A DNA stretch of 64,000 bases from Pseudomonadota bacterium (GCA_039026555.1 JBCCMB010000001.1:5631-69630); one strand, 5' to 3'; positions 5,075 to 44,339 are shown, numbered from the stretch's first letter. Made by a program: numbers and translations. Notes: generated by a model from the sequence alone, not told the origin.

Positions 5075-6046
5075 ATGGAATATGCGGTTCCAATTATTGT
5101 ATTTGTACTGGCGTTATTTTTCATTTCGAGCGCCGTTAAGGTCGTTCCGCAAGGTTATCAGTTTACGGTTGAGCGGTTTGGTCGCTTTACGCGGATCCTT
5201 CAGCCCGGTCTTGCGTTCTTAATCCCGTTTTTCGATCGGGTCGGCCGCAAGATGAATATGATGGAGACGGTGCTGGACGTGCCGCGCCAAGAAGTGATCA
5301 CAAAAGACAATGCGATGGTCTCGTGCGACGCTGTTGTCTTTATCCAAGTGGTAGACCCCGTCCCCGCGGCGTATGAGGTGAATGATTTAGAGCGCGCGAT
5401 CACCAATTTGGCGCTGACGAATATTCGGACAGTCGTCGGCTCGATGGATCTGGACGAGGTTTTGTCCAATCGGGACGATATTAATGCGCGGCTTTTGTCC
5501 GTTATAGACGCGGCGACCAATCCTTGGGGCGTGAAGGTCACGCGTATTGAGATCGCGGATTTGTCTCCGCCGGCGGATATCACAGAAGCCATGGCCCGCC
5601 AGATGAAGGCGGAACGGGAAAAGCGCGCGGAAATCTTATCGGCCGAAGGCGAAAAGCAATCGGCGATTCTTCGCGCGGAAGGCGAAAAGCAATCCCAAAT
5701 TCTGGAAGCTGAAGGCCGGCGAGAAGCAGCGTTCCGCGACGCTGAAGCGCGTGAGCGGGAGGCGGAAGCCGAAGCGAAAGCCACTGAAGCCGTCTCTGAA
5801 GCCGTCGCACGCGGCGACGTCAGCGCTATCAACTACTTTTTGGGACAAGGCTATATCGAGGCGTTCAAGGCGTTGGCGACGTCGAAGCAACAGAAAACCG
5901 TCATTATTCCGGCCGAATTCTCCGGCATTGCTGGTGCGATTGAAGGCATTCGCGCGCTGACGGAGGATTTCAAGCCCAAGGGCGATGGTGACGGTCCTAA
6001 CGGGTCCACGCCGCCCAGCGCCAACCCCTGGGGAGGATCGCGATGA
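5075..6046 (+). CDS. SPFH/band 7 (stomatin-like) membrane protein
   Basis: N-terminal TM segment, then VVPQGYQFTVERFGRF...PGLAFLIPFFDRV and a Glu/Ala-rich coiled coil (EGEKQSAILRAEGEKQS). Confidence 0.85.
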   Translation: MEYAVPIIVFVLALFFISSAVKVVPQGYQFTVERFGRFTRILQPGLAFLIPFFDRVGRKMNMMETVLDVPRQEVITKDNAMVSCDAVVFIQVVDPVPAAYEVNDLERAITNLALTNIRTVVGSMDLDEVLSNRDDINARLLSVIDAATNPWGVKVTRIEIADLSPPADITEAMARQMKAEREKRAEILSAEGEKQSAILRAEGEKQSQILEAEGRREAAFRDAEAREREAEAEAKATEAVSEAVARGDVSAINYFLGQGYIEAFKALATSKQQKTVIIPAEFSGIAGAIEGIRALTEDFKPKGDGDGPNGSTPPSANPWGGSR

Positions 6047-6507
6047 TCGACGTTTTAGGCGGATTGACGGCATGGCATTGGTTGGCGCTGGCGTTGGCGC
6101 TGCTGGTTATTGAAGTCTCCGCCGGCACGTTCGATCTGTTGTGGATCGCCATCGCCGCCGCGCTCACATCTGTGTACGCAGCGATCGCGCCCAGCGGCAT
6201 GGATGGATGGCAAGCGCAATTCGCGGTTTTCGCGGTCATCGCGGTGATCTTGGTGATTATGGGCCGCACCGTGTTCGCCGGTATTCGTAGACCGCCGGAG
6301 ACCCACCCCAATCTCAACAATCGCGCGGCTCAAATGGTCGGCAAGCGCGGGCACGCCGCCGCGGCTTTCGATGGCGGCGTCGGCCGGGTGAAGTTGGGCG
6401 ACAGCGAATGGCGCGCTGAAGCGGACGCGGACGCCGTCTTGCTGGAAGGCGCTGAAGTCGTCGTTGAAAGCGCCAAGGGTACAATCCTGAAAGTACGCCC
6501 GACTTAG
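6043..6507 (+). CDS. NfeD family membrane protein
   Basis: 4-nt overlap with the stomatin gene (the classic stomatin-NfeD pair). It has multiple TM helices and a C-terminal OB-like GRVKLGDSEWRAEAD. Confidence 0.8.
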   Translation: MIDVLGGLTAWHWLALALALLVIEVSAGTFDLLWIAIAAALTSVYAAIAPSGMDGWQAQFAVFAVIAVILVIMGRTVFAGIRRPPETHPNLNNRAAQMVGKRGHAAAAFDGGVGRVKLGDSEWRAEADADAVLLEGAEVVVESAKGTILKVRPT

Positions 6508-6601
6508 TTTAAGCCGCCTTCGTCCATCCAAGCGCGATCAGCTCCATTGACGAGGGCGGTGCCCGCCGCTACGCCCCCGTCATCTTTGTCAGGAGCATTA
6601 C

Positions 6602-8209
6602 ATGACCGACGCGGCGATCGCCGATCTTGTCTCTATGGCGGAGGCCGCCAGGGCGTGGCCTTTTGAGCAGGCGCGGGCGCTGAAGAAGAAGCTCGAGATC
6701 GCGGAAAAGCGCGGAAACCCCAAGACCGGGCCAGTGATTTTCGAAACAGGCTACGGACCGTCTGGACTGCCGCACATCGGCACATTCGGCGAAGTGGTAC
6801 GCACAACCATGGTGCGTAATGCGTTTCGCGCGCTGACGGATGATAAGATCCCGACCAAGCTGATCTGCGTTTCGGACGATATGGATGGCATGCGCAAAGT
6901 TCCGGACAACATGCCCAACGCCGACATGCTGACGGAGCATCTGCAAAAGCCGCTGACGGATGTGCCAGATCCCTTCGGTACGCATGAGAGCTATGGCGCG
7001 CACATGAATGCGCGGCTTCAAAGCTTTTTGGACAGTTTCGGGTTTGACTATGAATTCCGCTCCGCGACGGAGCTTTATAAATCCGGCGCGTATGATGCGG
7101 CTTTGCAGCGCGCGCTTGAAAAATTCGACGCCATTATGGACGTCATGCTGCCCACGCTAGGCGAAGAGCGCCGTCAGACCTACAGCCCTTTCCTGCCCAT
7201 CTCACCGAAAACTGGACGCGTTCTCTACGTGCCGACGAAGTCTGTGAAGGCGTCGGACGGGACGATTGTTTTCGATGATGAGGATGGGACTGAAACCGAA
7301 CTTCCGGTTACCGGCGGGCATGTCAAACTACAATGGAAGCCGGATTTCGGCATGCGTTGGGCCGCGCTGGGCGTGGATTTTGAGATGTTCGGCAAGGATC
7401 ATCAGGCCAACGCCGCGATCTATTCGAAAATCTGCCGGATCTTGGGCGCCGAGCCGCCGGTGCAATACGTCTATGAATTATTCTTGGACGATAAGGGCGA
7501 GAAAATCTCCAAATCGAAAGGCAATGGCATTTCGGTCGAGGATTGGCTGGCTTATGCGCCGCAGGAAAGCTTGGCGCTGTTCCAGTTCCAAAAGCCCCGT
7601 ACGGCGAAACGCTTGCATTTCGACGTCATTCCGAAAGCCGTGGACGAGTATTTGACCTTCCTCGACAAATACCATCAGGAGACGGCGGACAAACAGCTCG
7701 AAAACCCAGCCTGGCACATTCATGGCGGCCAACCTCCGACATGGGGAACGCCGCTGTCTTTCGCGTTGTTGTTGAACCTTGTAAGTGTCGCCAACGCCGA
7801 AACAAAAGACGTATTGTGGGGCTTCATCTCGCGTTATGCGCCCGAAGCAACGCCTGAGAACGCGCCCTATCTGGATCAAATGGCGGGCTATGCGATCCGC
7901 TATTATGCGGATTTTGTGAAGCCGCAAAAATCCTATCGAACGCCTGATGAAAAAGAGCGCGCGGCCCTTGCCGATCTCGCCGAACGTCTTGCAGCCTTTG
8001 ATGGTGAGGTGACCGGCGAGGCGTTGCAGACCCTGGTGTTTGAGGTCGGTAAAGCGCATGAATTCGAGCCGCTACGCGACTGGTTCAAAGCGATCTACGA
8101 GGTTTTGCTCGGCCAATCGCAGGGACCGCGCTTTGGCGGCTTCATGGCGCTTTACGGTGTGGAGGAGACACGCGCCCTGATCGAAACGCGTCTCGCAAGC
8201 GGCGCCTAA
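6602..8209 (+). CDS. lysK: Lysine--tRNA ligase, class I
   Basis: [14 protein letters not shown] (HIGH-like) and KISKSKGNG (KMSKS) in a 535-aa class I LysRS layout. Confidence 0.9.
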
Positions 8210-35697: not shown

Positions 35698-36368
35698 TTA
35701 GGCGGCCTCCTGATTGGAACGCAGGGATTCAGGGATGAAGTTGAAGATTGGGGCGAGCGCGAAGGTTATGTGCTCTTGCGGGTCGTTGAGCCGCGCCCGC
35801 ATGGCCGCGAGCGAGGCTTCATCAACTCGTGATAAGGCGGCGATGTAGGTTTCATCATCGTTCTCGTCGTGGCGCGGCAGCCCAAGCGGTTCGATTTGCA
35901 TCACCCGCTTGATGGTCGCGTAAAAGCTGGGGCCGGTGTACCAGGCGATATGGTTGACGCCCGCGGCCAAGCCGTACTCGTTCACGCCGATGCCGATGCG
36001 CCACATCACATCATAGTGCTGCTGGCGCGAGGCCAATCCCGCGACACGACGAACCGCGAGGCTTCCCAAATCGTTCGATCGCGAGGGACCGCCTGAAGGT
36101 CGCATGCGTCTTCAAACAAGTCCGACAACATGGTCGGGCCGGTCGTGGGGTTGAGTCGGCAGCAGCCCAACACTTTCCGCCGGCCTTCATCAAGGTGCAG
36201 GATGTAAACGGTTTCGTCGGTGTCGAACTGGTCTTTGTCGCGACCAGGCGTTGCACCGGGCACCCGCCATCCCCATTTTTTGACGACGACGTCGTACCGC
36301 ATGCGGTACATGTCCTCGATCAGGGGCGCATAACAGCGCCGGTTTCCCGGGGTTACGATTTCGATCAT
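35698..36368 (-). pseudogene. luxI: LuxI-family acyl-homoserine-lactone synthase, apparently frameshifted
   Basis: ORF 36006-36368 gives the N-terminal two thirds (EDMYRMRYDVVVKKWGWRV...DQFD...RLNPTTGPTMLSD...IWEASRFVV). ORF 35698-36105, in another frame, gives the C-terminal part (EYGLAAGVNHIAWYTGPSFYATIKRV...PLGLP). The two ORFs overlap by 100 nt. Confidence 0.65.
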
Positions 36369-36449: not shown

Positions 36450-37178
36450 TCAGGGTACGATTAAATCTCGCGCAATCGCCCGGGAGACGGCTTGGGTAGT
36501 GTTGACGCAATTCAGTTTACGTCGTGCGCGCACCAGCGCGTCTTTCACCGCCGCCTCGCTGATCGACATAATCACGCTCATCTCCCAGACGGTTTTGCCG
36601 ACTGCGGCGTATTGGAGAACGTCGCGTTCACGAGGCGCGAGCTTTACATCCGGGACGACCGGTACCGGCGGCTGCATATCCTCGAGCCGATAGTAGAAAT
36701 GCATGCTCACCAGCTGCAGCGCCGCAAAATCATCTTTCGAGATATCCACTTTGTTGGTGGCTAAGGAGACCCCGCCATCAACGCTGCCAGGCCTGCGCAT
36801 GGGTAGCATGATCCCGTCATTCAGGTCAAAGTCGCGCGCAATCTGCTGCACCGGACCATTGCCGTATCTTCGCTCGAACTTAAAGGCCTCCGCCCAACTA
36901 AACGGCCGCCGCGAGCGCATGGCGTAGATAATGACGGGGTCGCGGAGCAGATGCCCCTTTTCGAGCTGATACTCGACGATCTGACCTGGAAAATTGGAAT
37001 AGCTCATCGCCTTGTGCAGCTTCGGATTAAGCGGATTGACGAGTTGGCTGACGAAGAAGCGCTCGAACCCAAGCTTTCGGATAAAGCTGGAAAACACCCC
37101 GAGCACGCCATCGGTGGTCCGCGCGTCGTCAATCTCAGCTAAGGTGTCGAGCACCTCAATGCGTTGGCGTACATCCAT
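36450..37178 (-). CDS. luxR: LuxR family transcriptional regulator (autoinducer-binding plus HTH)
   Basis: N-terminal autoinducer-binding-like domain. The C-terminal LAPRERDVLQYAAVGKTVWEMSVIMSISEAAVKDALVRARRKL is a LuxR/GerE HTH. Confidence 0.85.
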   Translation of the reverse strand: MDVRQRIEVLDTLAEIDDARTTDGVLGVFSSFIRKLGFERFFVSQLVNPLNPKLHKAMSYSNFPGQIVEYQLEKGHLLRDPVIIYAMRSRRPFSWAEAFKFERRYGNGPVQQIARDFDLNDGIMLPMRRPGSVDGGVSLATNKVDISKDDFAALQLVSMHFYYRLEDMQPPVPVVPDVKLAPRERDVLQYAAVGKTVWEMSVIMSISEAAVKDALVRARRKLNCVNTTQAVSRAIARDLIVP

Positions 37179-37553: not shown

Positions 37554-38723
37554 ATGATGACAGGACGGAACCGACATTTCATGGATGCGTTCAAGGCTGA
37601 GGCGATGCGGTTTAGCCACGAGAGCGGGCGAACGGTCTACCAGGTGGCGCAGGATTTGGGGGGGGGAATCGACGCTGACGGCTTAGCGGCGACAATTGCG
37701 GGATAAGGTGCAGGCCGGACCTTTTAACAATCCAAAGAAGGAATTTGCTCGGCGCCACCGTGAGCTTGAGACGGTTCGTTAAAAGCGTGACTTATTAAAG
37801 TGAGGCGGACCGTTTGCGGAGCAAACGCAGCCGACGAACGCAACGGCCTTCTTCGCAACTGAGACAAAGAGATGACGTTTCGGTTCATCGCCGAGTCGAA
37901 GACCAGTGCAACGGTTTCCAGAGCCTGCCGGCTGTTCGGCCTCTCGCAGAGCGGATTCTACGCGCGGAAGCATCGTCCCGCCACTGCGCGTCGGCGACAA
38001 GATATGATCCTGCTGGTGCATATCCGAAACGCCTTTTCGCTCTCGAACGAGACTTGTGGCAGTCCACGGATGGCTGCTAACTTGAAAGAGGAAGGGTCTG
38101 CCGTCGGCCGCCGGTGAGCGGCGCGTCTCATGCGTCTCAATTGCCTGCAAGCGCATCGAAAGCCGCGCGTGAAACGCACGACTGACAGTCATTATGCATG
38201 GCCGGTCGCCAGGAAAGTTATTGACCTGGACTTCGCCGCAAGTGCTCCAGATTATAAAAAGGCCGTCGATATCAGCTATGTCTGGACGGCAGAAGTGGGG
38301 CTCTACCTCGCAATCGTAATAGACCCCTTCTCCCTGCGCATAGCCGGCTGGTAGACGTTGGATCGATTGAAACGCGACCTGGCTATCGAAGCCCTGCGCC
38401 GGGCAGTCGCGCTGCGGCGGCCGCCCCCGGGGGCTTATTCACCATTCGGATCGCGGATCGCAGTATTGCTCCGTCGATTACCGAACCGAGCTCGGGCGTA
38501 TGGGGACGACCGCCTCCTTGTCTGTCAAAGGAAGCTGCTACGACAACGCGGTCTTCGAAACATTCTTCAAGACCATCAAGTCGGAACTCGTCTAGCCAAC
38601 GAGCTTTGCAACACACGTCGAAGCAACGAAGTAAATCGCTCAATACATCTACGGCTATTTATAATCCCGTCAGACGACATACAGCGTTCGGCTATCAATC
38701 GACGATCGCTTATGAAAAAATAG
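37554..38723 (+). mobile_element. Degenerate IS3-family insertion sequence (orfA/orfB remnants with multiple frame breaks)
   Basis: An orfA-like HTH stretch (FKAEAMRFSHESGRTVYQVAQDLG) is followed by orfB pieces in different frames: RACRLFGLSQSGFYARK, GSPRMAANLKEEG, DISYVWTAEVGLYLAIVID and KGSCYDNAVFETFFKTIKSELV. Confidence 0.7.
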
Positions 38724-38874: not shown

Positions 38875-40776
38875 CTATTTGATAGCAGCCTGCCACAACT
38901 GATCCGCAACTTCCGCCGCCGATTGTGGGCGAAGGTCAGGCTGAAAGCTCGTAAGTTGGAACACAAGACGTCGAATTTCGGTTGCACCGAACCAGCTGTT
39001 GTTTGAAAGCACGCGCCACCGCAACCGCGCCAGGTCTCTAAAACCGGGCAATGTGGCGTTGGGCGCAGCTCTACCTGTTAGGGCGTACCCAAGCATTGAA
39101 CCCGCATAGAAGAGATCTGTGGACTCGGACCCGTTTCCGCGCCGCGTTTCAGGTGCGATGAAAGCTTGTTCAAAGGCGTGCGGATCGCCAAGATCACTGT
39201 CGGCGGCGGAAGCGATCGATATCACGGACGGTTTTTTGAGGCCGATCTGCCCAGCGCGGAGTTCGATAGGCGACTGGCCGGCGCCATGTCGCCTGGCGAG
39301 CTCGTCGAACAGAGCCGCATAGGCCACGTAAACATCCTTAACGTCGGTATTTTTCTCACGAGGTTTAAACGCGAAGATAAGCGGTTCGAAACTGTCCGCT
39401 AAACCTTTTTTTTCAATCGCCTCTTGAGGAGACAGTCGATGTTCTGCCTGACCCAAGGCGTCGATGATGCGTTTTGCTTGGGGATCGTCCATCGTGACGC
39501 CTAGCGCGGCTGCGGCGCGGTCGACGCGGTTAGCCTGATCGTGCGCCGCGCCGAGCGCCAGGGCGCCTTTATGGCCGTCGGGGTCGAGTTCAAACGCGGC
39601 AAGATAAGCTTCGACCGCATAGAGCCGAGCATCCAGCTCGTGCGGCCGTTCGTTGTAGTTAGACAGGTACTTCGCCGCTAAACGTACAAGCGCGTCGCCT
39701 GCGAGAAGCGCATCATCTACGGATTTGGAAGACGCCGCCAAATGTGCGTTCACGAGAAGGTCGGCCGCGTTGCGCCGATAACCAGTGTTGTCTTTGGCGT
39801 CAATATTCGCGCGTAGAGCATACTCGCCGGCATCTTTCAGCGCGTCAGCTTGTGCTTTTCCGGCTGCCGCCAGCCCAGCGAGACCGAGGTCGCGGCGGAT
39901 GATGAACGAACGATAGCGGTCGCTGACGTCCGGATTGCCGCCCGACGCCATGCGAAGGATGTCCATTGCCTCTTGCAGTCGGCGTTCGCCTTCGTCAATG
40001 CGGCCAGCCCTGAAGTGGGCGCTGCCGCTAGAGGCGAGCGCGCGCGCCCTTTTCTTTGCAGATACCTTTGTGACACGCTCAAATGCGTCGACGACGCCGT
40101 CAAATCCGCTGGCTGCGGTGTCGTACCGACGGAGATCGTGGTCTTGCATCGCACGCTCATACTCGATATCCGCTTTGAGCAGCGCGTTGTTTCTAACCGC
40201 CCGAAGCGCCTCGTCCAGATAGGCGCGCGCCAACCCAGAGGCGCCGATCCAGCCGTGCAGTCGGCCGAGCTCTTTGGCGGCCATGCCGCGCGTAAGGTCA
40301 TCACCCTTGCCCGAGTTACGGGCATCCAGGAGCAATTTCTCGGCGCGACTAAAACTTCGATCTTCAGTCAACTTAGCGCCCAAGTGCAGCGCCGCACGCG
40401 CCTGCGCCAACTCAACAAATTCCGACTGTTCTCTTTCTTTCAAATCGTCCAAAATATTTTGCAGACCGGCCCGGTCGGGTTCTCTTTCGATTTTCGCGAG
40501 CGTCTGCCCCCTAGGGTCTTCGTTCTGCGTAAGCCAATCGAGGAGTATATCCACCTGGATGGGCCGCTCGGCGTCCTCGCGTATTTCGGGGCCGTCGATC
40601 GAGGTTCTCCAGCCGAGATGCTTTAACCCAAGGACAGCGAAATAGAGGTCAGCCGCCGGTGAATCGGGCGCGAGGGATTGAGCCTTCGTAATCAGAGCAG
40701 CGTAATCGCCGTTCATCAGCGGTGTTGCAAATTGGCTCTTCGAACGATTTGCAATGAAGTCTGCGGCTTCCGTCAT
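38875..40776 (-). CDS. TPR-like helical repeat protein with a C-terminal protein-kinase C-lobe-like remnant
   Basis: Long Ala/Leu-rich repeats. The C-terminal DLFYAGSMLGYALTGRAAP...DLRPQSAAEV resembles kinase subdomains IX-XI, but I see no VAIK/HRD/DFG. ATGA overlap with the upstream protease gene. Confidence 0.45.
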   Translation of the reverse strand: MTEAADFIANRSKSQFATPLMNGDYAALITKAQSLAPDSPAADLYFAVLGLKHLGWRTSIDGPEIREDAERPIQVDILLDWLTQNEDPRGQTLAKIEREPDRAGLQNILDDLKEREQSEFVELAQARAALHLGAKLTEDRSFSRAEKLLLDARNSGKGDDLTRGMAAKELGRLHGWIGASGLARAYLDEALRAVRNNALLKADIEYERAMQDHDLRRYDTAASGFDGVVDAFERVTKVSAKKRARALASSGSAHFRAGRIDEGERRLQEAMDILRMASGGNPDVSDRYRSFIIRRDLGLAGLAAAGKAQADALKDAGEYALRANIDAKDNTGYRRNAADLLVNAHLAASSKSVDDALLAGDALVRLAAKYLSNYNERPHELDARLYAVEAYLAAFELDPDGHKGALALGAAHDQANRVDRAAAALGVTMDDPQAKRIIDALGQAEHRLSPQEAIEKKGLADSFEPLIFAFKPREKNTDVKDVYVAYAALFDELARRHGAGQSPIELRAGQIGLKKPSVISIASAADSDLGDPHAFEQAFIAPETRRGNGSESTDLFYAGSMLGYALTGRAAPNATLPGFRDLARLRWRVLSNNSWFGATEIRRLVFQLTSFQPDLRPQSAAEVADQLWQAAIK

Positions 40777-42641
40777 AGGGTTTGGTCGAGATCAGAACAG
40801 GCGAACACGCGATATTCGAGCTCGACGTCTGGCGCGCCTTCGGCGGCCAGGTGGGCGTTTCCACTTTCCGTCAGCGTCGTGCTCAGGAATCCCTTACTAA
40901 CCGTCGCCATAAACTGACTTTTTCGTCTTTCCACGCCGTTCAGCGCCACGCCGAACGAGAAGTGACCTGCGGCGTCGCCGCGGTGCTCCATGAGAATGGA
41001 AATGGGTTGGTCGACTGGCAGATTTATAGGCGCTTGCGCATAGCCGTCGCCGTCTAGCCGGAGACGGGCGTCGATAATGGGCGGTCGAGCTACGGCACCG
41101 TTGCATACATCGAGGCGCCATTGGTGCACTGCAAATTCGGCCGGATCGTCGCCGGTGTAGTCTACGAACAGATCACCCCAACGCGCCAACCGATCTGCGC
41201 GCGTCTCTGGGTCCTGACGGAGTTCGTCAATGACGTCGGCGCGGATTGCGTATGTAAAGCCCAAAGGTAAGCGTAGGTTATCCGCATCGCCAACGCGGCA
41301 CGCGCTCGCGGTTAGATAGCCGTTTCGTGGCGCGCACAGCGTGTCGCCGCCGCTGACCATGCCCACGACGCGACCTTCGCGGTTGAGAAGAGGGCTACCG
41401 CTGGACCCGCCTGTCGCCGACAGATCCATTGTCAACATGTGGCGGCGCGCGGGCAGCGCGCCGCCGACGCCAAATTCGTTCGAGACCTTGGCGACGACGC
41501 CGCGCACATAAACAGCTGTGGGCGCTTGTGGTTGGGGCGAGGCGGGCCCGAGATTCTCAAATGGAAAGCCGACATAGCCCAATTCATCGCCGCCGGTGAC
41601 GGCATAGAGGTCCTCCCGCGCGGCGATCTGGAGTCCCTGGCCGAGGCGCACATTGTCTGTCTCCTCAACCGCCGAGAGAAGAGCGACGTCGTATGCGTTG
41701 TAAACGGCGCCGAGCTGGCCCTTTTCCTTCTCCGACAATCCAGATTCCCAGGTTTTCAGCGCGCGATAGTCTGGATGAACAAGAGGGGGCGAGCCCATGT
41801 CGCCGCCGCTCACGCGTATCGGTATCGAGATTGGCCGCTCATCGTCGACGCGGCGGGCGCAGGCGATCTCGCCTGGTCTGGCCAACTGACCTTCGACATG
41901 GGCGTTTGTGACAAGCCGGATGCCGTCGCCGGTGTTTAGCGCCCAACCCGTTCCGACGCGTGTGAGAGACTCGCTTTCGCAAGCTTTTTCGTCGGCCTCT
42001 TGCACTGTGCCGAGTAGCCAAACCTGCGCGGCCGCCATATCCAGGTTTGCCGGCTCCACATAGTTTGGCAGAGCCGCGATGCCGAGCTGTAAAGCCTGAA
42101 GGCGTTCTTGAATGTCTCGCTGGCCTTCGAGTATTTTGCCGTCATTTTCCAGCACCTGATCGATGGCCGCGTCGGCCTCGTAGAAAAATGAGATTATAAT
42201 CCAATAGAGCGGCGCGATCGATATAGCCAAGGCGACGATGCCCGCGACCGCAGCCCCCCAATTGTCCCGTCGCCGGACTTTGTTCTGAGCCAATCGGCGC
42301 GCCGATTGGCGAGGTGATTCGGATAGGCTGCGCCTTCGGCGGCTGATATGTAGGCGCGCCGCAGACAATCGCGCTTCCGTGTTATCGTCTTCGCCTGGTT
42401 GGGCTAGTTTCGCGCCGAGATCGAGCCAGATTTCGTTCTCCTCGTCCTCCAATAGAGGTCGACGCTTCGTTATTTCGTCCGCCTTTTCCGCGCTTGGCCG
42501 CCACAAGAAGGCAGGTTGGTCTTCTCGTGGTTCGAACGCTGCTCCGTCTTGATCAAAGACCAGAGAGCCATGCTCCAATCCAACCGCCTCGGCGTGCAGG
42601 AAGAGCGGCTCCGAACCGTCAGAGTGCGGCGCGGCGCGCAT
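40773..42641 (-). CDS. Membrane-anchored trypsin-like (S1/DegP-type fold) serine protease with a ~130-aa cytoplasmic N-terminal domain
   Basis: TM segment GAAVAGIVALAISIAPLYWIIISFF. The catalytic triad context is LVTNAHV (His), YDVALLS (Asp) and TGGSSGSPLLNREGRVVGMVSGG (Ser). Confidence 0.75.
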   Translation of the reverse strand: MRAAPHSDGSEPLFLHAEAVGLEHGSLVFDQDGAAFEPREDQPAFLWRPSAEKADEITKRRPLLEDEENEIWLDLGAKLAQPGEDDNTEARLSAARLHISRRRRSLSESPRQSARRLAQNKVRRRDNWGAAVAGIVALAISIAPLYWIIISFFYEADAAIDQVLENDGKILEGQRDIQERLQALQLGIAALPNYVEPANLDMAAAQVWLLGTVQEADEKACESESLTRVGTGWALNTGDGIRLVTNAHVEGQLARPGEIACARRVDDERPISIPIRVSGGDMGSPPLVHPDYRALKTWESGLSEKEKGQLGAVYNAYDVALLSAVEETDNVRLGQGLQIAAREDLYAVTGGDELGYVGFPFENLGPASPQPQAPTAVYVRGVVAKVSNEFGVGGALPARRHMLTMDLSATGGSSGSPLLNREGRVVGMVSGGDTLCAPRNGYLTASACRVGDADNLRLPLGFTYAIRADVIDELRQDPETRADRLARWGDLFVDYTGDDPAEFAVHQWRLDVCNGAVARPPIIDARLRLDGDGYAQAPINLPVDQPISILMEHRGDAAGHFSFGVALNGVERRKSQFMATVSKGFLSTTLTESGNAHLAAEGAPDVELEYRVFACSDLDQTL

Positions 42642-42775
42642 AGGGATTGCGCGGCCGATTCGGATCTCTTTCGCTTCGCCGGCATCTATCTTGATCCGCC
42701 GAGCATCGTCGACGCCGCCGTCGACTGTGACAATGAAACCGCCATCGGCGCGCTTTGTGCTCGCTTTGAACAGCG

Positions 42776-44170
42776 TTAGCCTCCAAGTCGCGATAGCAGA
42801 TCGCGGTCGATTATACCGTCTGTCGGCAGGCCTCTATTCTCCTGCCATCTCAAGACGGCGGCGAACGTCTTCAATCCCAAAACGCCCGCTTCGCGCCCGG
42901 CGGGATCATGCAGGGTGGAAAGTTTTGACTGAATGGTTGCGATATCTTCGCCAGACGACCCGAAGCGCCAACGACGCGCATCGGCGATATTCCATCCTTG
43001 GGCGTGCAGCCGCGCTTCGCGGCCCGTGAGGAGCATATAGAAAAAACGTCGGCCTTTATTGAAGCCGCACGTGAGTCCCAATTGATCTTGGAACGGGACG
43101 ATGCTGTCTCTGTAGGGTATCTTGCATACGCCGCCCTCATCTGTCGTCATACAGCCGCCGCCATGTATCACATTGCACCCCGCCGACCCGTGACGAATGC
43201 CGTCTCTGGAGGGCCAGGCTGGGTGAATATTGTCGTTGACGAGTTCGAAATCCCTGTCCCAATCGGTCAAGCGATATCCAAGCCCATCTTTTGCGCGCAG
43301 CACGGGACCATACCAGTTTGCGTCCTGCCGCAATAGGTTTGGGGATGCAGCGTGACGCCCGCAATGCATAACGTGAAGACCTAGACCAAGCTGGTTCGTG
43401 CGCCAATCCAAGATCGCACGGTTTACAACATCGGGATTTGCGCGATCCTCTGATCTTACGGTGGGGTCGGAAAGTTGCAGCAGACCTTTCAAGAAAAGCC
43501 CAATCCGGTATATCTGCATGTTCATTAGATTTGGTGTGGTTGAGGCCGAAAAAGCGCTAACTGTATGCGCTTTGCGGTCCCACACGCCGATGACGCAGTT
43601 AAGCTCCTGGTGATCAATCGCCGCTTCGATGAGGTCGATGCGCTCGGACGGCTGGCCGGCGGCTGATCGGTTTTGGGCGATCCGGCATCCGCGCAATCCG
43701 AAAACGACCTTATCGGCGTTGATCCGCAGTCCGGGAGCGGTCCCTAGGAAGGTTGCATCATACGCGTTCGAGGCCGCCATCGCCTCCAACGTAGCAGATG
43801 TCAGAGGAAAGACGCTTGCTTCTGCGCCCTCTCCGACATGACGCAGATCCGGCGACTGGGCGTCTTCCACGCGCGCTGCGGAGATCTGTCTGTTTTTCAT
43901 CGCCGGAACGACCCGCTTATCGCGAAGCTCCTTGCGCAGAGTTTTATCCGTTTCGAAATCCTCGAACGTAAAATTGCCGACCGCCGAGGCTTGGGGTTCA
44001 TTAACGAGCGCGTCCAATTGCGCATCGATCGCGTCGTCGTCATAGACGAAATCATCGGCGTCGTAATCGGGTAGCAGTCCTGCCGTAACGTCCTGGGCGC
44101 GCGCGCTCAAACTCCCGAGCGCCGCCGCGCTAAGGCCTAGACTAAGCGCTCTTCGTCGATTGATTATCAT
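42776..44170 (-). CDS. Tat-signal exported protein with a C-terminal peptidoglycan-binding domain
   Basis: ATG 44170 gives MIINRRRALSLGLSAAALGSLSARA (twin-arginine) behind GGGAGGGGA. The C-terminal IQSKLSTL...LGLKTFAAVLRWQENRGLPTDGIIDRDLLSRLG is PG_binding_1-like. The central region is unassigned (HGSAGCNVIHG). Confidence 0.6.
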   Translation of the reverse strand: MIINRRRALSLGLSAAALGSLSARAQDVTAGLLPDYDADDFVYDDDAIDAQLDALVNEPQASAVGNFTFEDFETDKTLRKELRDKRVVPAMKNRQISAARVEDAQSPDLRHVGEGAEASVFPLTSATLEAMAASNAYDATFLGTAPGLRINADKVVFGLRGCRIAQNRSAAGQPSERIDLIEAAIDHQELNCVIGVWDRKAHTVSAFSASTTPNLMNMQIYRIGLFLKGLLQLSDPTVRSEDRANPDVVNRAILDWRTNQLGLGLHVMHCGRHAASPNLLRQDANWYGPVLRAKDGLGYRLTDWDRDFELVNDNIHPAWPSRDGIRHGSAGCNVIHGGGCMTTDEGGVCKIPYRDSIVPFQDQLGLTCGFNKGRRFFYMLLTGREARLHAQGWNIADARRWRFGSSGEDIATIQSKLSTLHDPAGREAGVLGLKTFAAVLRWQENRGLPTDGIIDRDLLSRLGG

Positions 44171-44339
44171 GAGCTCCCCTCCCAACCTGCTGCTAAACGT
44201 TAACGGACGGTCCCGCATTGCTCAAGCTTTCAGCTGCGACCCGTTCGGTCGCGGGCGGACAGCCTTGTTCGCCCTGGCGCATCCGCTAGGGTTCTGTATT
44301 GTCGCGTGAAGTGTTCAGCGTGTTGGGGACGAACGAAGC

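What the first reader, a model, noticed from the sequence alone, without database searches (positions are those of the whole stretch)
38875..44218. Envelope-directed effector operon: Tat-exported PG-binding protein, membrane-anchored trypsin-like protease, TPR/pseudokinase protein
Three co-oriented minus-strand genes lie next to target 3. The first is a twin-arginine-signal protein ending in a PG_binding_1-like domain. The second is a protease with an intact His/Asp/Ser context placed after a TM helix, with a ~130-aa cytoplasmic N-terminal domain. The third, joined by an ATGA overlap, is a 633-aa TPR-like protein whose C-terminus resembles only the C-lobe of a Ser/Thr kinase. Together with the periplasm-facing FGE domains and the PG-binding segment in target 1, the island seems organised around the cell envelope. 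The short N-terminal domains of the protease and of the giant ORF could be adaptor domains that link sensors to effectors.
Basis: inference. Interest (0 to 1): 0.6.

Follow-up and report, generated by a model that had tools for sequence, protein, structure and literature searches.

The report
FHA-tethered periplasmic protease, pseudokinase and lysin-like triad
The three genes form a real, conserved operon that spans the cell envelope: a cytoplasmic dead kinase, a membrane protease with an FHA domain inside and its active site outside, and an exported cell-wall-binding protein; relatives carry it without the neighbouring immune-type genes, so it is not simply their effector arm.

Summary
All three minus-strand genes exist and are conserved in the order A-B-C in 11 loci.

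- **A (42776-44218):** twin-arginine signal, then a ~330-aa His/Cys-rich core with no Pfam or PDB match, then PG_binding_1. The core family is large (728 cluster representatives). In other proteins it is fused to cell-wall hydrolases and to proteases.
- **B (40773-42745):** FHA domain (cytoplasm), one TM helix, HtrA-like serine protease with an intact H/D/S triad, then a beta-sandwich (periplasm). In this genome the start is broken by a frame change.
- **C (38875-40776):** TPR plus a decayed Ser/Thr kinase.

In other alphaproteobacteria the same B pairs with a TPR protein carrying a fully active kinase, and B's FHA keeps its phosphothreonine-binding serine. In the triad clade both features have decayed together, so B and C are likely partners.

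Seven of the 11 triads lie among housekeeping genes with no TIR, DGR or MoxR gene nearby. The L,D-transpeptidase idea and the shared-adaptor idea failed their tests.

Best reading (confidence about 0.5): an autonomous trans-envelope module in which C controls B through the FHA domain, and B processes the lysin-like protein A.

The parts
42776..44218 (-). Gene A: exported peptidoglycan-binding protein. The likely start is M17 at 44170, giving 464 aa.
   Evidence: ORF. The database copy starts at M17 (P0004). Orthologues are 37-43% identical in the triad loci.
44093..44170 (-). Twin-arginine (Tat) signal peptide of A: MIINRRRALSLGLSAAALGSLSARA|QD
   Evidence: Read directly from the sequence. The RR motif is kept in 12 of 13 relatives, with an AxA site or a lipobox. 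TatC is present in the genome.
42965..43975 (-). A-core: a ~330-aa His/Cys-rich domain that is in no family library. Invariant residues include H187, C192, H273 and H316. C332 of the SAGC motif is nearly invariant (numbering from M17).
   Evidence: Pfam, NCBIfam and PADLOC matched nothing in the core; PHROGs only the PG_binding_1 end. The AF2 model has pLDDT 75.7 and pTM 0.79. The core has no PDB fold match. The family has 728 representatives. It is fused to Peptidase_C70, Amidase_3, S8, trypsin, muramidase and lysozyme. Weak BFVD matches include a phage 'Lysin'.
42785..42955 (-). PG_binding_1 domain of A
   Evidence: Pfam E 3e-9, 37.4 bits against a cut-off of 23. The PDB profile hits are phiKZ gp144, SleB and an L,D-transpeptidase entry that matches through its PG-binding module only.
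40773..42745 (-). Gene B: FHA, TM helix, HtrA-like serine protease, beta-sandwich. The called ORF is 40773-42641. The homologous N-terminus continues in frame to 42737 and beyond. The ancestral ATG at 42745-42743 is in another frame.
42417..42737 (-). Cytoplasmic FHA-like domain of B. GR is kept, the canonical Ser is replaced by Gly (VGLEH), and there is an 8-residue loop insertion.
   Evidence: With profile A4 against the PDB, all 7 hits are FHA domains; the best is Rv1747 at E 0.0015. Orthologues L043 and L042 pass the Pfam FHA cut-off. The AF2 model is beta-rich here with pLDDT 70-83.
42736..42745 (-). Frame break at the start of B. ATG-GCG-GTT (MAV, as in L001 MAVERF) is out of frame with the rest of the gene. 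The two frames meet at a short T run.
42174..42263 (-). Single transmembrane helix of B, predicted N-in, C-out
   Evidence: Hydropathy peak of 2.38, with 11 K/R before and 3 after. AF2 models a long helix here.
41358..41954 (-). Periplasmic chymotrypsin-fold protease domain of B, with catalytic H248, D318 and S414 (622-aa numbering)
   Evidence: Trypsin_2 E 5e-10. The triad is invariant in 10 sequences. Foldseek top hits are Deg1, MucD, DegP and DegS at E 4e-9, and MarP Rv3671c also matches.
40800..41075 (-). C-terminal seven-strand beta-sandwich of B. It carries the second Cys of a conserved pair; the first lies just upstream in the helical linker. It takes the place of the PDZ domain.
   Evidence: AF2 secondary structure. 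The Cys columns are conserved.
38875..40776 (-). Gene C: cytoplasmic TPR protein ending in a decayed Ser/Thr kinase domain (pseudokinase). It is translationally coupled to B through the ATGA overlap.
   Evidence: No TM segment was found.
38902..39351 (-). Pseudokinase C-lobe of C. APE (FIAPE) and subdomains IX and XI are kept. HRDLKPEN has become SPIELRAGQ, and DFG is lost.
   Evidence: PDB profile hits to Aurora A and RSK2 at E 3e-6. Alignment with the active-kinase orthologues L042-L044.

Best explanation
This is an autonomous three-gene module that spans the cell envelope.

The parts:
- C is a cytoplasmic TPR protein whose Ser/Thr kinase domain has decayed into a pseudokinase.
- B is a single-pass membrane protein. 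Its FHA domain faces the cytoplasm. Its HtrA-like serine protease and a beta-sandwich domain face the periplasm.
- A is exported by the Tat pathway, binds peptidoglycan through PG_binding_1, and carries a new His/Cys-rich domain of the kind found fused to cell-wall lysins.

Proposed mechanism:
1. C docks on B's FHA domain. Docking is probably independent of phosphorylation, because the genome has no Hanks kinase and the FHA has lost its phosphate-binding Ser.
2. Through clustering or release of B, C sets the activity of the periplasmic protease.
3. The protease cleaves A. It either activates A from a zymogen or degrades it. This controls a cell-wall-acting activity from inside the cell.

What is shown: the domain identities, the predicted topology, the conserved gene order, descent from an active TPR-kinase/FHA-protease pair, and independence from TIR, DGR and MoxR genes.

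What is inferred: physical contact between B and C, A being B's client, the inside-out direction of signalling, and the physiological role.
For: 1. Conserved synteny. A-B-C occurs in 11 loci with spacers of 0-35 nt or overlaps (one apparent 223-nt B-C gap, in L023).

2. B and C as partners.
- In L042-L044 and L048 the same FHA-TM-protease lies next to a TPR protein.
- In L043 that protein carries a full kinase domain (Pkinase E 2e-47).
- The motifs VAIK (VAVK and VAYK in two), HRD, DFG and APE are intact in L042-L044.
- There the FHA keeps the canonical GR...SRxH motif and passes the Pfam cut-off.
- In the 10 triad loci examined, the kinase motifs are lost, and 9 of 10 FHA domains have lost the Ser.
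- This is co-degeneration of the two partners.
- The window's genome has no Pkinase match at all.

3. Topology.
- B has one TM segment with a strong positive-inside bias.
- A conserved Cys pair lies in the external domain.
- A has a Tat signal or a lipobox.
- C has no signal peptide or TM segment.

4. The link between A and a protease or lysin.
- The A-core family has 728 representatives.
- Of 49 long members, 16 carry Peptidase_C70, 13 Amidase_3, 3 S8, 3 Trypsin_2, and others carry muramidase, lysozyme, M15 or M23.
- One viral-contig member is fused to an SLT-like domain (by eye; no scan).
- BFVD structural matches include a 'Lysin'.

5. Autonomy. Seven of 11 triads have no TIR gene in the DNA held around them, and every neighbour scanned with Pfam was housekeeping or unmatched.

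6. Precedents.
- The membrane protease MarP cleaves the PG hydrolase RipA (PMC9897464, citing Botella 2017).
- The MviN pseudokinase recruits the FHA domain of FhaA to regulate PG synthesis (PMC12599244).
Against: - There is no direct evidence that B cleaves A or that the A-core is catalytic. Its fold has no PDB match.
- The trypsin domain fused to the A-core in P0029 is only distantly related to B's (hhalign 24%).
- In this genome B's start is broken by a frame change and its FHA loop carries an 8-residue insertion. The local copy may therefore be impaired.
- C of L021 and L047 lacks the kinase-like part altogether. Docking of FHA on the pseudokinase cannot be universal; the TPR part may be the contact.
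- Four of 11 triads do sit next to TIR genes. A specific TIR clade neighbours A-like genes in both L001 and L006. A purely autonomous model leaves this unexplained.
- Both AF2 models rest on 10-sequence alignments.
Confidence: 0.5

Rival explanations
1. One reading: the triad is a suicide or effector arm of the surrounding DGR/TIR/MoxR conflict island. A cytoplasmic alarm, such as a TIR product or a STAND or iSTAND complex, would act on C or on the FHA domain. The protease would then unleash the lysin-like protein A to lyse the infected cell.
For: Four of 11 triads (window, L001, L003, L005) lie within 5 kb of TIR genes. The TIR of L001's 1139-aa protein is 41% identical to the TIR of a TIR-TPR protein that neighbours two A-like genes in L006. 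Kaur et al. describe trypsin and peptidoglycan-directed effectors in such systems (PMC7159879).
Against: Seven of 11 triads have no TIR gene in the DNA held around them, and all Pfam-scanned neighbours were housekeeping or unmatched. The neighbouring TIR proteins are of different types. Near-identical triads (L005 and L008, about 90%) differ in their flanks. No shared adaptor domain with the giant ORF was found. PADLOC has no hit for A or C.
Confidence: 0.2
2. An outside-in sensor. The periplasmic protease with its beta-sandwich, together with PG-bound A, detects cell-wall damage or muropeptides. The signal passes through the TM helix to the FHA domain, and C acts as a TPR scaffold for cytoplasmic outputs. 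The protease domain would serve mainly as a sensor, as in RsgI-type anti-sigma factors.
For: Foldseek also matches the RsgI9 S1C-NTF2 sensor module (7sjy). TPR scaffolds and pseudokinases usually act as docking platforms. The iSTAND systems of Kaur et al. include cell-wall-associating modules behind TM segments.
Against: The catalytic triad is invariant in all 10 aligned homologues, which argues for real proteolysis. No output domain (DNA-binding, cyclase or similar) is present in C or conserved next to the triad.
Confidence: 0.15
3. In this particular genome the operon is a decaying remnant that no longer functions, carried passively on the conjugative element.
For: There is a frame break in the first codons of B and an 8-residue insertion in its FHA loop. 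IS-type transposase fragments lie directly downstream of C at 37.8-38.7 kb.
Against: All three ORFs are otherwise full length, with the catalytic triad, TM segment, Tat signal and PG_binding_1 intact. The break could be an assembly error, or it could be bypassed by the internal ATG at 42641. The assembly is a 217-contig draft.
Confidence: 0.1

Closest known systems
MarP (Rv3671c) and RipA of Mycobacterium tuberculosis
   Same: A membrane-anchored periplasmic chymotrypsin-fold serine protease cleaves a peptidoglycan hydrolase that is held as a zymogen (PMC9897464, citing Botella 2017). The MarP structure 3k6y is among the Foldseek matches to B.
   Different: MarP has no FHA domain and no kinase or pseudokinase partner, and by my own knowledge it has four TM helices. 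RipA is an NlpC/P60 enzyme unrelated to the A-core. The NCBIfam MarP score is 16 against a cut-off of 250.
MviN (MurJ) pseudokinase and the FhaA FHA domain in mycobacteria
   Same: A bacterial pseudokinase domain serves as the docking site for an FHA domain to regulate peptidoglycan metabolism (PMC12599244).
   Different: There the docking depends on PknB phosphorylation and the pseudokinase is fused to the flippase. Here the genome has no Hanks kinase, the FHA lacks the phosphate-binding Ser, and the output is a protease.
Hanks kinase/FHA signalling pairs, such as PpkA-Fha1 of the type VI secretion system (own knowledge)
   Same: The active-kinase relatives (L042-L044) are a kinase gene beside a gene with a canonical FHA domain.
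   Different: The FHA is fused through one TM helix to a periplasmic protease. In the window clade the kinase is dead.
Prc-NlpI-MepS and CtpA-LbcA (own knowledge)
   Same: A periplasmic protease together with a TPR adaptor controls the level of a peptidoglycan hydrolase.
   Different: In those systems the TPR adaptor is a periplasmic lipoprotein. Here the TPR protein is cytoplasmic, and the link crosses the membrane through the FHA-TM fusion.
EAD-coupled trypsin effectors of the MoxR/iSTAND and STAND conflict systems (Kaur et al. 2020 and 2021, PMC7159879 and PMC8195603)
   Same: The genomic setting in the window: TIR-iSTAND, MoxR, a giant WD40-caspase-FGE protein and DGR targets. Trypsin-like and peptidoglycan-directed effectors are described for such systems.
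   Different: No EAD or Death-like domain is shared with a core component. The triad occurs without those systems in 7 of 11 loci.
pro-SleC and Csp proteases of clostridial spores
   Same: A PG_binding_1-containing lytic enzyme stored as a zymogen; by own knowledge a dedicated serine protease activates it. SleC (9h68) is the top PDB fold hit, through the PG-binding module.
   Different: The catalytic domain and the protease class both differ, and there is no membrane or cytoplasmic control arm.

Membership tests
FHA domain (PF00498) | Profile match over the curated threshold | tested here: inconclusive
   Window B gives no Pfam FHA hit at E<=0.05, even with the extended N-terminus. Triad orthologues score 12.8-16.9 bits, below the 20.7 cut-off. 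The B orthologues L043 and L042 score 23.7 and 22.9 bits, above the cut-off. The family profile A4 hits only FHA domains in the PDB (7 of 7, best E 0.0015).
FHA domain (PF00498) | Phosphothreonine-binding residues: Arg of GR, and Ser and His of SxxH | tested here: not met
   The window has IGRA and VGLEH, so Arg and His are kept and Ser is replaced by Gly. The same holds in 9 of 10 triad FHA domains. The canonical SRxH is found in L021 and in the kinase-linked L042-L044.
HtrA / S1C serine proteases | Chymotrypsin fold with a His-Asp-Ser triad | tested here: met
   Trypsin_2 E 5e-10. H248, D318 and S414 are invariant. Foldseek matches Deg1, MucD, DegP and DegS at E 4e-9 to 1e-7.
HtrA / S1C serine proteases | C-terminal PDZ domain or domains | tested here: not met
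   No PDZ hit in Pfam. The AF2 model shows a helical linker and a seven-strand beta-sandwich instead.
Hanks-type Ser/Thr protein kinase (PF00069) | Homology of the catalytic domain | tested here: met
   The C-lobe matches 343 kinase chains in the PDB, best E 3e-6. Orthologue L003 gives Pkinase E 1.4e-5. The full-length active relative L043 gives E 2e-47.
Hanks-type Ser/Thr protein kinase (PF00069) | Catalytic motifs: Gly-loop, VAIK Lys, HRD Asp and DFG Asp | tested here: not met
   In the window protein HRDLKPEN has become SPIELRAGQ, DFG is absent, and the N-lobe is shortened and lacks VAIK. It is therefore a pseudokinase.
PG_binding_1 (PF01471) | Profile match over the threshold | tested here: met
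   37.4 bits against a cut-off of 23, residues 422-478. PDB matches to phiKZ gp144 and SleB.
Tat-exported proteins | Twin-arginine motif, a mildly hydrophobic h-region and a cleavage site, with Tat machinery in the genome | tested here: met
   The sequence is NRRRALSLGLSAAALGSLSARA|QD. RR is conserved in 12 of 13 relatives. TatC is found in G000. Actual export cannot be tested here.
L,D-transpeptidase (YkuD, PF03734) | YkuD fold with the H-x(n)-SxGC catalytic motif | tested here: not met
   No Pfam hit. hhalign of the A-core profile against 11 local YkuD domains gives a probability of 0.3%. Foldseek matches LDT entries only through the PG-binding module. The motif spacing resembles YkuD, but that resemblance is only a lead.
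EAD-linked effector of MoxR/iSTAND ternary systems (Kaur et al. 2020) | An N-terminal adaptor domain shared with a core component | tested here: not met
   hhalign of B's N-terminus against the first 250 aa of the giant ORF gives a probability of 0.13%. B's N-terminus is an FHA domain.
EAD-linked effector of MoxR/iSTAND ternary systems (Kaur et al. 2020) | Consistent genomic linkage to the NTPase core | tested here: not met
   Seven of 11 triad loci have no TIR in the DNA held around them, and Pfam on immediate neighbours found no STAND or MoxR gene (L047 not scanned).
MarP family protease (NF033740) | NCBIfam equivalog score | tested here: not met
   16.3 bits against a cut-off of 250. The resemblance is structural only (3k6y).

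The most novel reading that the evidence does not exclude
The triad would be an inside-out lysis switch of a kind not yet described. A cytoplasmic TPR/pseudokinase sensor would control, through an FHA domain fused across the membrane, an HtrA-like protease. That protease would activate a peptidoglycan hydrolase built on a new catalytic fold, the A-core. The A-core family has more than 700 clusters, is absent from Pfam, and is widely fused to lysins and proteases. Where TIR genes sit beside the triad, it would serve as a cell-suicide output of immune signalling.
Probability: 0.2. Interest if true: 0.8.

Novelty: new variant of a known kind. Interest (0 to 1): 0.55.

Why it matters
If this reading is right, bacteria have an unrecognised way of sending a cytoplasmic decision across the inner membrane. 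A phosphothreonine-reader domain is fused through one helix to a periplasmic protease and partnered with a TPR kinase.

The triad clade gives a natural experiment. In the loci sampled, an exported lysin-like gene is present only where both have decayed.

The work also defines a large, unannotated domain family, the A-core. The domains fused to it point to cell-wall lysis under proteolytic control. That is relevant to autolysin regulation, to phage and defence biology, and to enzyme discovery.

For the DGR/TIR island itself, the result removes these three genes from the set of obligate components.

Tried and rejected
- **Plasmid search.** Megablast of the region against plasmids gave no match.
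- **Defence-system libraries.** PADLOC gave nothing for A or C, and only a generic RT-protease hit for B.
- **PHROGs.** It matched only the PG-binding part of A. One relative's core hits phrog_3000, which has unknown function.
- **L,D-transpeptidase idea.** Rejected.
- **Shared adaptor with the giant ORF.** Rejected.
- **Word-indexed homologue search.**
  - Badly under-reported the families: 2 hits for B and 6 for A.
  - Whole-genome HMM searches and the exhaustive representative search were needed.
- **Pattern scan of GTDB genomes.** Found only one B locus.
- **A-core in phages.**
  - The first viral scan found none, and the second found two loci.
  - Cultured phages match only through PG_binding_1.
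  - The domain is therefore rare in sequenced phages.
- **Promoter and terminator scan.** Uninformative: no sigma-70-like sites were found, and the hairpins all lie inside genes.
- **Earlier notes of this scan, searched by sequence.** Nothing found.

Full report
**Observation.**
- A is 42776-44218 (480 aa).
- B is 40773-42641 (622 aa).
- C is 38875-40776 (633 aa), sharing an ATGA overlap with B.

Pfam gives PG_binding_1 at the end of A, Trypsin_2 in B and a weak TPR hit in C. The divergent neighbours are an FGE-domain DGR target, a TIR-iSTAND gene, a MoxR-like gene and the giant WD40-caspase-FGE gene. Earlier notes of this scan describe that island as a DGR plus a MoxR/iSTAND ternary system on a conjugative element. 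I used those notes as context only.

**The triad is a conserved unit.**
The word-indexed protein search found only two distant relatives of B. One of them lies on a 19-kb contig (L001) with the same A-B-C order. Its three proteins are 41%, 31% and 30% identical to the window's.

Relatives of A led to two more triads, L003 and L005. A pattern scan of species genomes found one in a Henriciella MAG, L008. An HMM search of 262 genomes of the window's own family found B-like genes in 10 genomes. Fetching the flanks showed full triads in five more, L020-L024. A metagenome scan added L047.

That makes 11 loci. In all of them A is followed after 17-35 nt by B, and B is followed by C with an overlap or a few bases (L023 shows an apparent 223-nt gap, possibly a start-codon call). 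The genes are therefore real and form one operon-like unit.

**Gene B.**
The catalytic His, Asp and Ser are invariant in ten homologues. The AF2 model (pLDDT 67) matches HtrA-family proteases: Deg1, MucD, DegP and DegS at E down to 4e-9. It also matches MarP Rv3671c and the RsgI9 S1C-NTF2 module. There is no PDZ domain. A helical linker and a seven-strand beta-sandwich with a conserved Cys pair follow the protease.

There is one TM segment, with 11 K/R in the 30 residues before it and 3 after. This predicts an N-in, C-out topology.

The N-terminal cytoplasmic domain is an FHA domain.
- Orthologues give sub-threshold Pfam FHA hits.
- A profile of nine N-termini hits only FHA domains in the PDB: Rv1747, Ki-67, EmbR, CHFR and afadin, best E 0.0015.
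- The B orthologues in L043 and L042 pass the Pfam FHA cut-off.

In the window the called ORF misses the first FHA strands. The frame stays open upstream and encodes 'FIVTVDGG...IRIGRA', which aligns with the homologues' N-termini, but no in-frame start codon is present. The ATG that matches the homologues' start (MAV..., 42745) is in another frame, and the two frames meet at a short T run. This is either a genuine frameshift or an assembly error.

**Gene C and its tie to B.**
A profile of five C proteins matches the C-lobe of protein kinases in the PDB (Aurora A, RSK2; E 3e-6; 343 chains). APE and subdomains IX and XI are present, but HRD and DFG are absent.

A class-level sample of 401 alphaproteobacterial genomes found three more genomes with B-like genes. 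In these loci (L042-L044), B lies next to a C homologue, and no A-core gene is present. The C homologue there is TPR plus a full kinase domain (L043: Pkinase E 2e-47), with Gly-loop, VAIK, HRDLKPEN, DFG and APE intact. The partner FHA has the canonical GR...SRxH phosphothreonine-binding residues.

In the triad clade both features are degraded.
- Kinase motifs are lost in all ten C proteins examined. L021 and L047 lack the kinase-like part entirely.
- The FHA Ser is replaced in 9 of 10.
- The window's genome, which is 99.9% complete, has no Pkinase match at all.

This joint decay is the main argument that C and the FHA domain of B are functional partners. It also suggests that in the window clade the contact no longer depends on phosphorylation. 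The sample is small (10 loci against 3) and the loci are phylogenetically related.

**Gene A.**
From M17 the protein begins with NRRRALSLG...ARA|QD. The twin arginine is kept in 12 of 13 relatives, and several relatives carry a lipobox instead of AxA. The genome has TatC.

The ~330-aa core between the signal and PG_binding_1 has no match in Pfam, NCBIfam or PADLOC. Its AF2 model is reasonably confident (pLDDT 75.7, pTM 0.79). Foldseek against the PDB matches only the PG-binding module.

It was tested and not supported: hhalign against 11 YkuD domains from related genomes gives a probability of 0.3%.

The exhaustive representative search shows that the core is a large family, with 728 representatives at E<=1e-3 and 364 at E<=1e-30. 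Of 49 long members:
- 23 carry PG_binding_1
- 16 carry Peptidase_C70
- 13 carry Amidase_3
- 3 carry Peptidase_S8
- 3 carry Trypsin_2
- others carry muramidase, Amidase_2, phage lysozyme, M15 or M23.

Four or five His, two Cys and several Asp and Asn residues are invariant or nearly so. Further points:
- The BFVD search gives two core-length matches, one of them named 'Lysin'.
- One IMG/VR member is fused to what looks by eye like an SLT-type transglycosylase domain (no scan).
- Distant A-like genes sit next to Peptidase_C70 and Amidase_3 genes in L007, and next to a TIR-TPR gene in L006.

I read the core as an uncharacterised, probably catalytic, cell-wall-directed domain that is repeatedly coupled to proteases. 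No activity is shown.

**Relation to the island.**
- The triads in the window, L001, L003 and L005 lie within 5 kb of TIR genes, but those TIR proteins are of different architectures.
- L008, L020-L024 and L047 have no TIR gene by Pfam or by an ad hoc TIR HMM. The Pfam-scanned neighbours that matched a family are housekeeping genes.
- L005 and L008 have triads that are 89-94% identical, yet their upstream flanks diverge 90 bp from gene A.
- The first 250 residues of the giant ORF show no similarity to B's N-terminus.

The triad is autonomous, although its repeated landing beside TIR genes is not explained.

**Mechanism.**
The best-supported reading is an inside-out module.
1. C, a TPR sensor or scaffold with a pseudokinase, binds the cytoplasmic FHA domain of B.
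2. This sets the oligomeric or active state of the periplasmic HtrA-like protease.
3. The protease processes PG-bound A.

Precedents exist for each link.
- MarP cleaves the RipA zymogen (PMC9897464).
- The MviN pseudokinase recruits the FhaA FHA domain to control peptidoglycan synthesis (PMC12599244).

Full-text searches found no paper describing this gene set.

Other agents of this scan have noted FHA-TM-protease genes beside Hanks kinases in other phyla. These are unchecked notes and not independent evidence. They suggest the B architecture is widespread and unstudied.

**Verdict.**
- It is a new variant of known kinds: kinase-FHA signalling, and protease-controlled cell-wall hydrolases.
- It includes an unannotated domain family.
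- Confidence in the partner relationships is moderate, and confidence in the exact biochemical steps is low.

Noticed in passing
window 42736-42745: The start of the protease gene is broken. The ATG that matches the homologues' start is out of frame with the rest of the gene, and the frames switch at a short T run. The called ORF (start 42641) lacks the first FHA strands.
   Followed up: partly
window 37779-38723: Short overlapping ORFs directly downstream of gene C look like IS3-type transposase fragments (for example MTFRFIAESKTSATVSRACRLFGLSQSGFYARKHRP). This suggests an IS remnant between the triad and the LuxR/LuxI genes.
   Followed up: no
window 35698-36368: The autoinducer synthase next to the LuxR-type gene (36450-37178) appears split. 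The 120-aa ORF covers only positions 9-103 of the 183-position Autoind_synth profile, and a second overlapping ORF (35698-36105) may hold the rest.
   Followed up: no
A-core family (P0012-P0158; window 42965-43975): This is a large family absent from Pfam and NCBIfam, with 728 representatives at 50% clustering. All four sampled members outside the triad loci lack a signal peptide. Recurrent architectures include Peptidase_C70 + core + PG_binding_1, core + PG_binding_1 + trypsin or subtilase, and lysozyme + core. About 1440-aa forms are common in one genus of the window's family.
   Followed up: partly
L043 4801-14111; L044 3894-16982: In two other alphaproteobacterial families the active TPR-kinase/FHA-protease pair is embedded among LemA genes, DUF3137 membrane proteins (three in L043; inferred by size in L044) and a ~600-aa protein of unknown function. 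The gene set is conserved between the two loci.
   Followed up: partly
L001 17250-18248; L005 839-1903: A 332/354-aa protein with no Pfam match is conserved next to the triad in two loci (34% identity, E 1e-55). Its N-terminus (CFVISPIG...) looks like a TIR or nucleoside-deoxyribosyltransferase-like fold.
   Followed up: no
L006 8633-13665: Two tandem A-like paralogues are followed by a TIR-TPR protein. Its TIR domain is 41% identical to that of the 1139-aa TIR protein directly upstream of gene A in L001. This may be a specific link between TIR genes and A-like genes.
   Followed up: partly
G000 (whole genome of the window): No Hanks-type protein kinase domain is detectable anywhere in the 99.9%-complete genome. 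Any FHA domain it encodes therefore has no conventional kinase to read.
   Followed up: partly
L042 8708-12259: One genome carries two divergently oriented B paralogues, with a single active TPR-kinase gene nearby (6033-8120). One paralogue has a canonical FHA (SRSH) and the other a degenerate one (GREH).
   Followed up: no
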